DNA of 64,000 bases, from NCBI GenBank assembly GCA_019894975.1, contig JAGXNO010000013.1:10637-74636 (forward strand), read 5' to 3'. The translations under genes and the position numbers were made by a program. Source of the stretch: Promethearchaeota archaeon (lineage in GTDB: Archaea > Asgardarchaeota > Lokiarchaeia > Sigyniarchaeales > SOKP01). Shown here in pieces: positions 15,736 to 54,947 of the stretch; positions within the stretch are counted from its first letter, which is position 1; each line of letters starts with the position of its first letter. Below the pieces are notes generated by a model that searched no databases, was not told where the DNA came from, and was given only the letters and a program-made list of their open reading frames with translations.

Positions 15736-15927
15736 TTTCTTTGATGTTTAGCATTATTATAATGTAATAAGGATAATAAGAAAAAAATAGTTAATGCAAT
15801 TAAAATTTGAATTAATAATAAAACTTAATTTGAAAATTCTTATGCCCTCTCTTTTTATAAGGTAATTAGCAAGAGATAGTCTTAAAGATTTATTAATAAA
15901 CACAGTTCTGTAGGACTAAGAAGAAAA

Positions 15928-17262
15928 TTGCCATCCACCTTAGAAAAGATACGGGTTTTAGGAGAAAACTCAAAATACGATATATGTGCTTCCACGGCTT
16001 CAACTAGAACAGATAAATACCCAAAGCTTTTTGGAAATACAAAAGAATGGATTGGAACTACAGCTAGTGCGGGGATTTGTCATAGTTATACACCTGATGG
16101 TCGATGCATGAGTTTATTCAAAACTCTATATACTAACAAATGTATTTATAATTGTAAGTATTGTTTTTCTAATACATGTAAACGAAAGATGAGTTTTACA
16201 CCTGAAGAATATGCTCGGACTTTTATGAAACTGTATTCGATGAATGTTGTTGAGGGGGTGTTTATATCATCAGGTATATGCGGGAGTGCTGATCAAACAA
16301 CTGAAGAAATGTTAGAAGCCATTCGATTACTTCGATTCAAATATAATTTTCGAGGATATGTACATTTTAAGTGCTTACCAGGTGCAAGTCAATATCTACT
16401 CAAAGAGGCAATATCTCTTTCTGATCGCATTTCAATTAATACAGAAGCTTCTTCTAAGGATTATCTTTCTGAAATTTCACCAGAAAAAGACTTCAAAAAT
16501 GATATAATAATGAGACAAAGCTGGTTAAAAAGTCTCCGTTTGAAGAATAACGAAGAATCTCTAAAAGAAATGAAAGATATGAAACAGGACACTATGTCTA
16601 AATTACAATTCCAAGAAAGAATGATAAAGGAAAGAAGAAAAAACGGATATAGGGCATTTCGCTGGGATGGAGCTCCAATTCTAAATAGTGGCCAAACAAC
16701 TCAGTTTGTTATTGGTGCTGCGGAATCAGAAACGGATCTAGATCTCTTAAATATGATAGATTGGCAATATCGTACTGTTGATATAAGGCGCGCCTATTTT
16801 TCAGCGTTTATTCCCATTGAAGGAACACCTCTGGGCAATAAAAAACCCGCTCCATTAGAAAGAGAACATAGGTTATATCAAGCAGATTGGCTTTTAAGAA
16901 TATATCATTATAAATTAAAAGATATAAAGGAAATTATCACTGAAGAGGGAAACTTACCGAAAGGGGATCCAAAACTCCATTTTGCAAGAGAGTATTTCAA
17001 ACATCATAATCTTGTAGATCCAAATAATGCTTCCTACCAAGAATTATTACGAGTTCCAGGAATTGGGCCAATTTCAGCAAAGAGGATTGTAAATTTACGT
17101 AAAGGTAATTATGAATTCAATCGCAGAGAAGATTTAAAATCTGTTGGTGTTGTTTTAAAAAGAGCTGATCCGTTTCTCAGAGTAAATGGTAGAAATCAAA
17201 AAACCCTATCGAGTTTCCTTGAGAATGAAATTTCAAAAGAGGTTCAAAACAGTATATCATGA
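15928..17262 (+). CDS. Putative DNA modification/repair radical SAM protein with HhH (TIGR03916-like)
   Basis: KYDICAS, GICHSYTPDGRC, CIYNCKYC, REHRLYQADWLLR, LLRVPGIG. Confidence 0.9.
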   Translation: MPSTLEKIRVLGENSKYDICASTASTRTDKYPKLFGNTKEWIGTTASAGICHSYTPDGRCMSLFKTLYTNKCIYNCKYCFSNTCKRKMSFTPEEYARTFMKLYSMNVVEGVFISSGICGSADQTTEEMLEAIRLLRFKYNFRGYVHFKCLPGASQYLLKEAISLSDRISINTEASSKDYLSEISPEKDFKNDIIMRQSWLKSLRLKNNEESLKEMKDMKQDTMSKLQFQERMIKERRKNGYRAFRWDGAPILNSGQTTQFVIGAAESETDLDLLNMIDWQYRTVDIRRAYFSAFIPIEGTPLGNKKPAPLEREHRLYQADWLLRIYHYKLKDIKEIITEEGNLPKGDPKLHFAREYFKHHNLVDPNNASYQELLRVPGIGPISAKRIVNLRKGNYEFNRREDLKSVGVVLKRADPFLRVNGRNQKTLSSFLENEISKEVQNSIS

Positions 17263-51944: not shown

Positions 51945-52186
51945 ACATAATCAACTTTTTTAACTTTTAGTTTGGTAATTTACTAATGTCTCTTTTTGTT
52001 ACTTCAATTATAAATATAACAGATTACATCAATAAAAAAATATTCAATAAAAAAATATTTATCTTTTTTCTTATTTAATAAGAATATAAACACAAACAAG
52101 ATTAATAGCCATCGAAACGATTAATTATATAAAGGAGAAACAACACCAAATACTTTGAAAAACTGAGTTTGTACAAATAACAATAA

Positions 52187-52403
52187 GGGCCATTTGCTTA
52201 GCCAAAATTGGAAATTTATTCCCATTTCTAAATTGGTTATCAAGGTTTTTGAGTACGCTTGGCCAACAAGCGCAGGTCTTATAAATGACCTACAGACATA
52301 CAAAAAAGTATTAACAAAGTGTCTGTAATAAGTAAAAACCTGAGATCCGGGGTTCAAGTGATGATTGGGATTCCCTTCATCAGAACAAATCCCCGATGGC
52401 CCA
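52187..52403 (+). tRNA. Multi-intron tRNA, probably tRNA-Ile(UAU), with introns in the D-loop, anticodon loop and T-loop
   Basis: GGGCCAT/ATGGCCC+A acceptor; GCTT/AAGC D-stem; CAGGT/ACCTG with CT-TAT-AA; AGATC variable loop; CGGGG-TTCAA^AT-CCCCG T-arm; T-run after the 3' end. Confidence 0.8.
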
Positions 52404-52556
52404 TTTTTATCTTCTTTTTACTTTTAGAGTCAAAAAACTTCGTGAAACATCAATTTCACGTTTTTTTATATATCTTGGAGAAATACCTCCATATGGATTA
52501 GGATATTATTTTAAGGTATTGAAGATTTAATTGTAAAAAACAAATGATATAATGAT

Positions 52557-53358: not shown

Positions 53359-54723
53359 CTACTTTTGAGTTATTTGCTTATAAGCTTTTTCAAATCTTTC
53401 AACAGCAGAGATAATATCTTCTTTTTTTGAACCTATTGCAGCATTCATAACAATATAAGGTGTAGTATATTTTTCACAGCATGTACCAAATGTACTCTCT
53501 TTTGGATTATACACTCGAGGTCCCGTAACTCTTAGATTATATAGTGCTCCACCGATTGCAAATAAATGCTCTTCTTTTAGGTTTTTTAAAGATAATGCTA
53601 CTGCTACAGGATTGTAAATTTCGAGTATCCTCTCTTTAATACTTCTCGCCACAATTGACAATTTTTCTTCAAGTAATTTTCGATTTTGCTGTTGTTCTTC
53701 AATTAATTTTTGATATCCATTAATTCCTAAAGAGAGCATAGATATTAAAAAATTGACAACTGGAGTAGCTGATGCTCGTCCAGCATAAGATTGACTAATT
53801 TTTCTTATATTTTCTTTAATGGGTGAAGCAATTAAAGCCCCTCCAACGGGTGTAAGAAAATTTTTATCGGTTGATTGAATAATCGCATCAACTCTCCCTG
53901 CATCTATTGCTGAACGTATTAGTTTCATCCATTCTGGGCTTTGGACTCCATAAGCATTAATAATTATATGGACAAGATTTTTTTCTTCTGCGATTTTACT
54001 TATTTCTTTTAAATTATCAGGTTCTCGAGGAGGGAAAAAGCTCGTTAGTGATAGTATTGCATAACAATCATCATCTATACTAGGCATTATATCTTCTACT
54101 GGGATCCTGACAGCATCTCCATAAATTTTACCACTTATTATTTTAGGTTTAAGTCCCATTAATTCTATTGATTTTAATATTGATTTATGGTCAATTTGAG
54201 GAACTAATATTGTTCTCTTTATATTTGAGGTGTCATTTTCTTCGGGTCTTAAAGCTGCTAATGTTAATGATAAAGACATCCCTGTACATAATGGGACTAC
54301 TATTGCTTCTTTTATATTTGGCAAGCCAAAGTTCCTTAATATATCTCGAGCTAAATAGTTAGAAATCTCATACATTATAGACCCTCCCGGTGCTTTCGGT
54401 TGTGGGGCCGTAAGAAAACCACTTCTTCCAACCCCATGACAGAATCCTGCTGATGTTTTTAAATGGAGTTTTGATGCGATTCTAGCTTCTCTTTCCCCTA
54501 CTCTTGCAGCATCACTGTCTTTATCGGTATCCATATTTGAAAGTGTTTCTAATAAAAATTCAATTTGCTGATCACTCCATGGGTTTAGCGGAACACTCTT
54601 TTGTTCAAATAATGTTTTAATTGGTCTCATGAAGTTATTAAGAACTATTTGCCCTCTATCTAACATATTCTGAGGTATAGGAGTATTTTTAAAAAATTCA
54701 CTTATTTTATTAAAATCAACCAC
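53359..54723 (-). CDS. spcS: O-phosphoseryl-tRNA(Sec) selenium transferase
   Basis: GEREAR, HGVGRSG...QPKAPG, NAYG, QSTDKNFLTPVGG, YAGRAS. Confidence 0.95.
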   Translation of the reverse strand: MVDFNKISEFFKNTPIPQNMLDRGQIVLNNFMRPIKTLFEQKSVPLNPWSDQQIEFLLETLSNMDTDKDSDAARVGEREARIASKLHLKTSAGFCHGVGRSGFLTAPQPKAPGGSIMYEISNYLARDILRNFGLPNIKEAIVVPLCTGMSLSLTLAALRPEENDTSNIKRTILVPQIDHKSILKSIELMGLKPKIISGKIYGDAVRIPVEDIMPSIDDDCYAILSLTSFFPPREPDNLKEISKIAEEKNLVHIIINAYGVQSPEWMKLIRSAIDAGRVDAIIQSTDKNFLTPVGGALIASPIKENIRKISQSYAGRASATPVVNFLISMLSLGINGYQKLIEEQQQNRKLLEEKLSIVARSIKERILEIYNPVAVALSLKNLKEEHLFAIGGALYNLRVTGPRVYNPKESTFGTCCEKYTTPYIVMNAAIGSKKEDIISAVERFEKAYKQITQK

Positions 54724-54854: not shown

Positions 54855-54947
54855 TGGCGGCCCTCGAGGGGAATCGAACCCCTATCCCTTCGCAGGATAA
54901 CTGGGTTTGAAGCCCAGTGTCAGAGACCACTCCAACCGTCAAGGGCC
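54855..54947 (-). tRNA. selC: tRNA-Sec(UCA), 9/4 fold, CCA encoded
   Basis: 9-bp acceptor GGCCCTTGA/TCGAGGGCC, 4-bp T stem, 7-bp D stem, CT-TCA-AA loop, long variable arm. Confidence 0.95.

What the first reader, a model, noticed from the sequence alone, without database searches (positions are those of the whole stretch)
52273..52342. Rare UAU anticodon: tRNA-Ile(UAU) alongside or instead of agmatidine-modified CAU
Seen: after intron removal the anticodon loop reads CU UAU AA; the result is the same for 36/37, 37/38 or 38/39 because of the A-run. The body is Ile-like (GGGCC acceptor, A73, short variable loop). Established: most archaea read AUA with tRNA-Ile2(CAU) modified by TiaS; UAU is exceptional in prokaryotes but standard in eukaryotes, where it often carries an intron. 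Inference: eukaryote-like AUA decoding in an AT-rich Asgard genome. The spliced rpl11 junction itself creates an AUA codon, which may be coincidence.
Basis: partly seen in the sequence, partly recalled or inferred. Interest (0 to 1): 0.7.

Follow-up and report, generated by a model that had tools for sequence, protein, structure and literature searches.

The report
Intron-split tRNA-Ile(UAU), no TiaS
A hidden tRNA gene broken by four introns gives an isoleucine tRNA with the rare anticodon UAU. This Loki-type Asgard archaeon, like all 161 genomes searched in its class, shows no trace of the enzyme most archaea need to read AUA, so it probably reads that common codon directly, as eukaryotes do.

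Summary
Window 52187-52403 (+) is a 217-nt tRNA gene with four introns that ARAGORN and Rfam miss. Removing the introns leaves a perfect 75-nt class-I cloverleaf with anticodon loop CUUAUAA (UAU at 52280-52282) and discriminator A73.

The splice register does not rest on the A-run alone:
- A 4-bp helix between nt 33-36 and intron bases -6 to -3 can pair in all 20 same-genus orthologues.
- Sister families carry the same tRNA with a canonical 37/38 bulge-helix-bulge intron that gives the same loop.
- The UAA (Leu) alternative does not fit the short variable loop.

Exons are almost invariant across the genus, while introns come and go at five positions.

TiaS was not found in this genome (two Pfam domains and a full Asgard TiaS protein) nor in any of 161 genomes of the class. 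Most other Asgard families have it. AUA makes up 33% of Ile codons. The reading is therefore "instead of" agmatidine-CAU, not "alongside".

The strategy is already known from Nanoarchaeum, Korarchaeum, Mycoplasma mobile and eukaryotes. I found no paper reporting it for Asgard archaea.

Not shown: the mature RNA, the state of U34, and charging by IleRS.

The parts
52187..52203 (+). Exon 1, tRNA nt 1-17: 5' acceptor strand GGGCCAT, nt 8-9 TT, 5' D-stem strand GCTT, start of D-loop AGCC
   Evidence: Orthologues that lack intron 1 read GCTTAGCC directly joined to TGGTTA.
52204..52233 (+). Intron 1 (30 nt) in the D-loop, between nt 17 and 17a
   Evidence: Strict BHB: central helix TTAG/CTAA, bulges CCA and ATT, inner helix 4 bp. 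Present in 6 and absent from 14 of 20 orthologues at exactly this junction.
52234..52239 (+). Exon 2, a 6-nt micro-exon TGGTTA (nt 17a-21, includes G18 G19 and A21)
52240..52267 (+). Intron 2 (28 nt) between nt 21 and 22
   Evidence: BHB: central helix TGGT/GCCA, bulges TAT and ACA, inner helix 4 bp. The orthologue in L016 lacks it and reads TGGCTA joined to AAGCG.
52268..52284 (+). Exon 3, nt 22-38: 3' D-stem strand AAGC, G26, 5' anticodon-stem strand CAGGT, anticodon loop CTTATAA. The anticodon TAT is at 52280-52282.
   Evidence: This stretch is invariant in all 20 orthologues.
52285..52337 (+). Intron 3 (53 nt) in the anticodon loop, formally at 38/39 (the A-run makes 36/37 to 38/39 equivalent). 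It holds a covarying hairpin (52291-52298 with 52320-52327) and the 3' strand GTAA of the central helix (52332-52335).
   Evidence: Central helix pairable in 20 of 20 orthologues. Hairpin has 5 pairs with changes on both sides. The BHB is relaxed: a 1x2 internal loop next to the anticodon stem replaces the 3-nt bulge.
52338..52357 (+). Exon 4, nt 39-58: 3' anticodon-stem strand ACCTG, variable loop AGATC, 5' T-stem strand CGGGG, start of T-loop TTCAA
52358..52388 (+). Intron 4 (31 nt) in the T-loop, between nt 58 and 59
   Evidence: Strict hBHBh': central helix GTTC/GAAC, bulges AAG and AAA, inner helix 6 bp, outer helix 3 bp. Absent from most orthologues. A metagenome DNA contig skips exactly these 31 nt.
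52389..52403 (+). Exon 5, nt 59-73: end of T-loop AT, 3' T-stem strand CCCCG, 3' acceptor strand ATGGCCC, discriminator A73. No CCA is encoded.
52404..52421 (+). T-rich tract directly after A73 (TTTTTATCTTCTTTTTAC), a likely archaeal transcription stop
   Evidence: Read from the sequence. That it stops transcription is inference.

Best explanation
Window 52187-52403 encodes the single-copy AUA decoder of this Loki-type Asgard archaeon, a tRNA-Ile with anticodon UAU.

The precursor carries four introns, two in the D-arm, one in the anticodon loop and one in the T-loop. The archaeal splicing endonuclease (two EndA-family genes are present) should cut them at bulge-helix-bulge motifs, and a ligase should join the five exons. 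The product is a canonical 75-nt tRNA to which CCA is added afterwards.

IleRS would charge it, and U34 would pair with the A of AUA. The lineage, and its whole class in the genomes searched, shows no TiaS. This tRNA therefore replaces the usual agmatidine-modified tRNA-Ile2(CAU).

Shown here: the gene, the intron boundaries, the mature sequence, the conservation, and the failure to find TiaS.

Inferred: splicing in vivo, charging by IleRS, and the way AUG is avoided. My best guess for the last point is a U34 modification made on the precursor while the intron pairs with nt 33-36. An unmodified U34, as in Mycoplasma mobile, is the alternative.
For: Gene and splicing:
- The spliced product is a perfect cloverleaf that ARAGORN calls tRNA-Ile(tat).
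- Three introns have strict BHB motifs.
- The anticodon intron's central helix (nt 33-36 with intron -6 to -3) can pair in 20 of 20 orthologues, with three compatible one-sided changes. Its hairpin has 5 covarying pairs, and no shuffle out of 500 reached the observed covariation score.
- The elongator tRNA-Met of the same genome uses the same 38/39 register.
- Two EndA genes are present. That two-gene set matches the kind of enzyme reported to cut non-canonical introns (PMC5829648).

Conservation:
- Orthologues occur in 23 of 24 same-genus genomes.
- Mature sequences differ at only a few of 75 positions, while introns differ in presence at five positions and in sequence.
- The same tRNA, always with an anticodon-loop intron, occurs in a second genus of the family (L046) and in three sister families (L027, L032, L100-L103). 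I worked out L027 and L032: both have a canonical 37/38 BHB (helix CTTA/TAGG) that gives the same loop.

Need for an AUA decoder and lack of TiaS:
- TiaS was not found in this genome or in 0 of 161 genomes of the class. It was found in 171 of 301 genomes of the phylum, with whole families either positive or negative.
- AUA is 32.6 per 1000 codons and 33% of Ile codons.
- Only an initiator and an elongator CAU tRNA were found.
Against: - There is no RNA evidence. The one RNA-library contig on the locus comes from a relative and still holds introns.
- The anticodon intron is not a strict BHB. A 1x2 internal loop stands where the 3-nt bulge should be, and the inner helix is only 1 bp in this genome.
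- An alternative hairpin, GGUC (nt 29-32) with intron GACC, competes with the anticodon stem.
- My CAU-tRNA census is insensitive.
- The genome is a 95% complete MAG with 8.6% contamination.
- Sequence similarity to tRNA-Ile(GAU) discriminates only modestly: 56 of 75 identical against 52 of 75 for tRNA-Arg.
Confidence: 0.85

Rival explanations
1. UAU works alongside, not instead of, a C34-modified tRNA-Ile2(CAU). A third CAU tRNA, hidden by introns, would be modified by an enzyme unrelated to TiaS or too divergent to detect.
For: My tRNA finder recovered only about 33 tRNA loci. It missed the elongator tRNA-Met because of its C54 T-loop. Hidden tRNA genes therefore certainly exist in this genome.
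Against: Three independent TiaS queries found nothing here, and TiaS_FLD is in 0 of 161 genomes of the class, 40 of them high quality. The same model scores E of about 1e-30 to 1e-46 in other Asgard families. In the precedents, UAU and lack of TiaS go together (PMC3919564).
Confidence: 0.08
2. The intron is cut further 5' (33/34 to 35/36), so the mature loop is CUUAAAA and the tRNA reads UUA as a tRNA-Leu(UAA).
For: The A-run allows this product on paper. One BHB/ARAGORN combination did return Leu(taa).
Against: The body has a 5-nt variable loop, whereas archaeal tRNA-Leu is class II with a long arm (established knowledge; see Leu at 85 nt). The conserved central helix places the cuts after nt 38 and before nt 39. 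Orthologues in sister families read CTTATA followed by T, with one A before the 3' stem strand, and so can only give CUUAUAA.
Confidence: 0.02
3. The gene is a decaying pseudogene or a chance tRNA-like sequence riddled with insertions, and it is not used.
For: Two thirds of the locus is intron. Standard finders miss it. The anticodon intron has a relaxed motif.
Against: Exons are nearly invariant in 20 species while introns diverge and are gained or lost precisely at BHB boundaries. The gene is present in 23 of 24 genomes of the genus and in four families. It is the only candidate decoder for a codon used 32.6 times per 1000. Multi-intron tRNA genes are the norm in several Asgard lineages (bioRxiv 10.64898/2026.10.13.758758).
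Confidence: 0.03

Closest known systems
tRNA-Ile(UAU) of Nanoarchaeum equitans and Korarchaeum cryptofilum, archaea without TiaS (PMC3919564, PMC6000648)
   Same: The anticodon is UAU. TiaS is not found. In Korarchaeum the UAU gene carries an intron while the GAU gene does not (PMC6000648). I saw the same contrast in this order in the three Ile(GAU) genes I read.
   Different: Here the trait covers a whole Asgard class (0 of 161 genomes with TiaS) rather than two isolated species. The gene has four introns and a 6-nt micro-exon. AUA is a major codon in a genome of 31.6% GC.
Eukaryotic cytosolic tRNA-Ile(UAU), read as pseudouridine-A-pseudouridine (PMC3575796 introduction, PMC8879553). Intron-dependent formation by Pus1 is my own knowledge (Szweykowska-Kulinska et al. 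1994).
   Same: The anticodon is UAU. An anticodon-loop intron is always present and pairs with the anticodon. There is no C34-modifying enzyme. The host lineage is the closest prokaryotic relative of eukaryotes.
   Different: No modification data exist here. Only one TruA-family pseudouridine synthase gene was found in the genome, so there is no obvious extra Pus1-like paralogue. Eukaryotes also use IAU, and I did not look for an AAU gene. Most other Asgard families have TiaS, so inheritance by eukaryotes is not established.
Mycoplasma mobile tRNA-Ile2(UAU) with unmodified U34 (PMC3575796)
   Same: A prokaryote that lacks the C34-modifying enzyme reads AUA with a UAU anticodon.
   Different: M. 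mobile is a bacterium, lacks TilS rather than TiaS, and its gene has no intron. Its discrimination against AUG was shown by experiment. Nothing of that kind is known here.
[quoted passage not shown] 2024, PMC11291895)
   Same: There are several BHB introns per gene, D-arm introns are missed by standard software, and introns are gained and lost between close relatives.
   Different: That preprint does not contain the words UAU, Ile, isoleucine or TiaS. Its focal families are Freyrarchaeaceae, Jordiarchaeaceae and Atabeyarchaeaceae, not the Loki-type class.

Membership tests
tRNA (class I, elongator) | Cloverleaf with 7-bp acceptor stem, 4-bp D stem, 5-bp anticodon stem, 7-nt loop with U33, 5-bp T stem and a T-loop of the TTCRANY type | tested here: met
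   The spliced 75-mer has all stems fully paired, G18 G19, U33, T-loop TTCAAAT, a 5-nt variable loop and A73.
tRNA-Ile (isoleucine acceptor) | An anticodon that reads an Ile codon (NAU with A35, U36), plus A37, A38 and A73. These identity elements are known from E. coli and yeast work and are recalled from my own knowledge. | tested here: met
   Anticodon UAU, A37, A38, A73, C4-G69 and U12-A23 are all present. The nearest class-I tRNA in the genome is Ile(GAU). In the sister genus g9, Ile(UAU) in L101 and Ile(GAU) in L028 share the unusual T-loop ATCGAAG.
tRNA-Ile (isoleucine acceptor) | Charged with isoleucine by IleRS | not testable with these tools
   This needs an aminoacylation assay.
Archaeal BHB (endonuclease-spliced) tRNA introns | Two 3-nt bulges separated by a 4-bp helix, with the cut 2 nt into each bulge | tested here: met
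   Introns 1, 2 and 4 meet the strict motif. Intron 3 keeps the 4-bp helix and the 5' AAA bulge, but has a 1x2 internal loop on the stem side, so it is relaxed. Its orthologues in L027 and L032 are canonical.
TiaS-independent AUA decoding (the Nanoarchaeum/Korarchaeum type) | The genome encodes tRNA-Ile(UAU) and no TiaS | tested here: met
   own genome; class. The positive controls ring in four archaea.
TiaS-independent AUA decoding (the Nanoarchaeum/Korarchaeum type) | No tRNA-Ile2(CAU): only initiator and elongator Met carry CAU | tested here: inconclusive
   I found an initiator (C104, with A1:U72) and an elongator (C111) only. My finder is insensitive to heavily split genes.
Eukaryote-type pseudouridine-A-pseudouridine tRNA-Ile | Pseudouridine at positions 34 and 36, made on the intron-bearing precursor | not testable with these tools
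   Only the anticodon and the obligatory intron are shared. The genome has one TruA-family gene.

The most novel reading that the evidence does not exclude
The Loki-type class of Asgard archaea as a whole gave up (or never had) agmatidine and reads AUA with an intron-bearing tRNA-Ile(UAU). The intron, which is kept in every orthologue seen, would be needed to modify U34 on the precursor, as in eukaryotes. If so, the eukaryotic way of separating AUA from AUG would go back to the archaeal ancestor, or would at least have an archaeal parallel that can be studied in cultured strains.
Probability: 0.2. Interest if true: 0.85.

Novelty: new member of a known kind. Interest (0 to 1): 0.6.

Why it matters
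Separating AUA (Ile) from AUG (Met) is a classic weak spot of the genetic code. Bacteria solve it with lysidine, most archaea with agmatidine, and eukaryotes with a modified UAU or IAU anticodon. Reviews treat UAU as a eukaryotic rescue of an anticodon that prokaryotes avoid (PMC8879553).

A whole class of the closest archaeal relatives of eukaryotes appears to use UAU, on an intron-bearing precursor, for a codon that makes up a third of its isoleucines. That makes the origin of the eukaryotic solution testable, because cultured strains of this class exist (own knowledge).

There is also a practical point. Standard tRNA finders miss this gene, so annotations of these genomes would show no AUA decoder at all.

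Tried and rejected
RNA evidence for splicing:
- The one RNA-library contig on the locus comes from a relative and keeps its introns. All runs were available only as contigs. This gives no information on the mature tRNA.

Census of CAU tRNAs in the genome:
- Two structure-based scans were either too noisy or too insensitive.
- The BHB-plus-ARAGORN pipeline found only the initiator.

AUA decoder in TiaS-less families outside the class (f16, f17, f20):
- BLAST with the mature tRNA hit only Arg, Ala and Lys tRNAs.
- The pattern AGCRNNNNNYTTATA matched at chance level, and none of the 30 loci held a tRNA.
- Rfam found only 16 tRNAs in the closed genome G051, none of them Ile.
- The question stays open for these families.

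Other points:
- Weak BLAST hits in G032, G037 and G038 turned out to be coding sequence.
- I found no tRNA-Ile(UAU) in G032. Its congener G025 has one.
- I considered a box C/D or K-turn reading of the conserved intron start (A)TGAC and dropped it, because no conserved partner GA exists on the 3' side.
- I looked for a Pus1-like second TruA paralogue and found only one TruA-family gene.
- The 78-aa ORF at 52121-52357 (-), which overlaps the gene, has no Pfam match and is taken as spurious.

Full report
**What is there**

The flagged stretch 52273-52342 reads CAGGT CTTATAA ... ACCTG, a 5-bp stem interrupted by 53 nt. It is part of a larger gene. GGGCCAT at 52187 pairs with ATGGCCC at 52396-52402, and this is followed by A and a T-run.

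ARAGORN finds only tRNA-Sec in the window. Rfam finds tRNA-Sec and one other tRNA. Neither sees this locus.

I wrote a bulge-helix-bulge (BHB) scanner using this rule: a 4-bp helix, a 3-nt bulge 3' of it on each strand, and a cut after the second bulge base. It returned three clean introns:
- 52204-52233 in the D-loop
- 52240-52267 between nt 21 and 22
- 52358-52388 in the T-loop

With these three removed, ARAGORN calls tRNA-Ile(tat) with a 53-nt anticodon-loop intron. The fully spliced 75-mer is a flawless cloverleaf with G18 G19, U33, a 5-nt variable loop, T-loop TTCAAAT and A73. No CCA is encoded. The gene therefore has five exons, one of only 6 nt.

**Is the anticodon really UAU?**

Only two 7-nt loops can be made from the flanks: CUUAUAA (UAU) and CUUAAAA (UAA). 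Four lines of evidence favour UAU.

- The body is class I, so it is not a tRNA-Leu.
- In an alignment of the anticodon arm plus intron from 20 same-genus orthologues (A1), nt 33-36 (UUAU) pair with intron bases -6 to -3 (GUAA, once AUGA, once AUAA) in 20 of 20 sequences. There are three compatible one-sided changes. An AAA bulge follows on the 5' side and AA on the 3' side. The endonuclease rule then cuts after nt 38 and before nt 39.
- The elongator tRNA-Met of this genome has the same 38/39 arrangement.
- Sister families carry the same tRNA. I worked out the motif in L027 and L032: both have a canonical 37/38 BHB intron with helix CUUA/UAGG. Their 5' exon ends in CTTATA followed by T, and a single A precedes the 3' stem strand, so only CUUAUAA can result. 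The four further orthologues L100-L103 show the same exon ends.

The motif in this genus is relaxed. C32 faces two A's instead of a 3-nt bulge, and the inner helix is one pair here. RNAalifold prefers a competing hairpin, GGUC (nt 29-32) with intron GACC. The intron's own hairpin is well supported: 5 pairs change on both sides, and none of 500 shuffles reached the observed covariation score.

**Is the gene in use?**

A DNA search found the locus in 23 of 24 genomes of the genus. Across them, introns are present or absent at five positions: D-loop, 21/22, anticodon loop, variable region and T-loop. Each gene has two to four introns. Where an intron is missing, the junction is exactly the predicted one. 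A metagenome DNA contig likewise skips exactly the 31-nt T-loop intron.

The mature sequences recovered automatically differ at only a few of 75 positions. Intron sequences are about 75-85% identical and carry indels. That is the signature of purifying selection on the exons.

The locus lies between two minus-strand ORFs that have no Pfam match. SepSecS and tRNA-Sec lie downstream. Two EndA-family genes are present, the gene set of the heteromeric enzyme type reported to handle non-canonical introns (PMC5829648).

I could not obtain RNA evidence. The only RNA-library contig at the locus is from a relative and retains introns.

**Alongside or instead of agmatidine?**

- The Pfam TiaS_FLD model finds nothing in this genome, although it rings in all four archaeal control genomes.
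- TiaS_TCKD, the catalytic domain, also finds nothing.
- A full-length Asgard TiaS with all four domains finds nothing even at E up to 1.
- In a draw of 301 genomes of the phylum, TiaS is present in 171, and the split follows families. For example f9 has 24 of 28, f11 68 of 76, f26 21 of 21 and f31 11 of 11. Against that, f1 has 0 of 68, f2 0 of 7, f16 0 of 19, f17 0 of 3, f20 0 of 5 and f25 0 of 3.
- In all 161 genomes held for this class (7 families, 30 genera, 40 of them high quality), none has it.

These are 'not found in those searched' statements, but the pattern is too clean to be explained by incompleteness.

tRNA-Ile(UAU) was found in each family of the order that I probed:
- f1: genera g1 and g12
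- f2: genera g2, g5 and g9
- f3
- f4

In this genome I found an initiator tRNA (A1:U72, three G-C pairs in the anticodon stem) and an elongator tRNA-Met. I found no third CAU gene, but my finder is insensitive, so that point is inconclusive.

AUA is not rare here. It is 32.6 per 1000 codons, 33% of Ile codons and more frequent than AUG, in a genome of 31.6% GC.

**Mechanism**

Shown: the gene, its boundaries, the mature sequence, the conservation and the missing TiaS.

Inferred:
- The precursor is transcribed, the introns are cut by EndA and the exons ligated.
- CCA is added.
- IleRS charges the tRNA through A35, U36, A37, A38 and A73.
- U34 reads the A of AUA.

How AUG is avoided is unknown. 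Precedents offer three routes:
- unmodified U34 with adapted partners (Mycoplasma mobile, PMC3575796)
- pseudouridine at 34 and 36 (eukaryotes, PMC3575796 introduction; intron-dependent in yeast, own knowledge)
- other U34 modifications (PMC3895270, by its title and abstract)

Every one of the roughly 27 orthologues seen keeps an anticodon-loop intron that pairs with the anticodon. The three Ile(GAU) genes I read do not have one (own genome, G038, G026). Korarchaeum shows the same contrast (PMC6000648). This parallel with eukaryotes is suggestive. It is only a correlation, and I did not measure how often anticodon-loop introns are retained in other tRNAs of these genomes. Only one TruA-family gene is present.

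**Comparison and novelty**

UAU-based AUA decoding without TiaS or TilS is a known kind. It is described for Nanoarchaeum, Korarchaeum, M. mobile and a few other bacteria, and for eukaryotes (PMC3919564, PMC6000648, PMC3575796). A survey of 167 archaeal genomes found UAU only in the first two (PMC6000648).

Multi-intron Asgard tRNA genes are also known (bioRxiv 10.64898/2026.10.13.758758; PMC11291895). That preprint does not mention UAU, Ile or TiaS.

Full-text searches gave the following:
- TiaS with Asgard: no paper
- agmatidine with Lokiarchae*: no paper
- Lokiarchae* with UAU and tRNA: one paper, a genetic-code-expansion review that I did not open
- Asgard with AUA, isoleucine and anticodon: four papers. 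I opened only PMC8879553, which treats UAU as a eukaryotic innovation

The library lacks most subscription journals, so prior mention elsewhere is possible. I therefore file this as a new member of a known kind. The added points are that it is class-wide in Asgard archaea and that standard annotation misses it.

**Limits**

- Handles and families are coded, so I cannot name the class. Earlier notes of this scan call the organism Loki-type.
- I could not find the AUA decoder in the TiaS-less families outside the class.
- I did not test TiaS-positive Asgard genomes for absence of UAU.

Noticed in passing
window 53359-54723 (-) and 54859-54947 (-): A SepSecS gene (Pfam E 1.5e-115) lies next to a tRNA-Sec gene (Rfam 62.6 bits), so part of the selenocysteine machinery is clustered just downstream of the tRNA-Ile gene.
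   Followed up: no
alignment A1, columns 24-30 (window about 52296-52302); L100-L102: The top of the anticodon-intron hairpin carries a conserved motif, GACATACA in genus g1 and GCATACA in family f2. The intron is therefore older than the split of the two families, and its loop is under some constraint that I cannot explain.
   Followed up: partly
window 52275-52278 with 52287-52290: A conserved alternative pairing, GGUC (nt 29-32) with GACC at the start of the intron, is the RNAalifold consensus. It would compete with the anticodon stem in the precursor. In 20 sequences it shows only one-sided changes, and one sequence breaks a pair.
   Followed up: partly
own genome C111, reverse strand (rc coordinates 15805-15943): The elongator tRNA-Met has two introns (38/39 and T-loop) and a T-loop CTCAAAC with C54 instead of U54. 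It sits about 20 nt from a tRNA-Thr(GGU) gene.
   Followed up: partly
phylum-level search: families f7, f16, f17, f20, f25: Five Asgard families outside this class also show no TiaS (0 of 4, 0 of 19, 0 of 3, 0 of 5, 0 of 3). I could not locate any Ile tRNA in the three of them that I probed (f16, f17, f20), so how they read AUA is open. The closed genome G051 (f17) yields only 16 Rfam tRNA hits, which suggests very heavily split tRNA genes.
   Followed up: partly
L028, L101 (genus g9), L100, L103: In sister families both Ile(GAU) and Ile(UAU) have T-loops that start with A (ATCGAAG or ATCGAGG), so A54 stands where U54 is usual.
   Followed up: no
window 52354-52386 in metagenome run X5: A DNA contig from a subsurface metagenome carries an allele of this tRNA gene without the T-loop intron. 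Related contigs in permafrost and marine-sediment runs show other intron sets. Intron content is thus polymorphic among close relatives in nature.
   Followed up: partly
L049 (G058, family f1, genus g12): ARAGORN calls a second tRNA-Ile(tat) with a 59-nt intron in this genome, in addition to the clear orthologue in L046. I did not check whether it is a real second copy or a false call.
   Followed up: no
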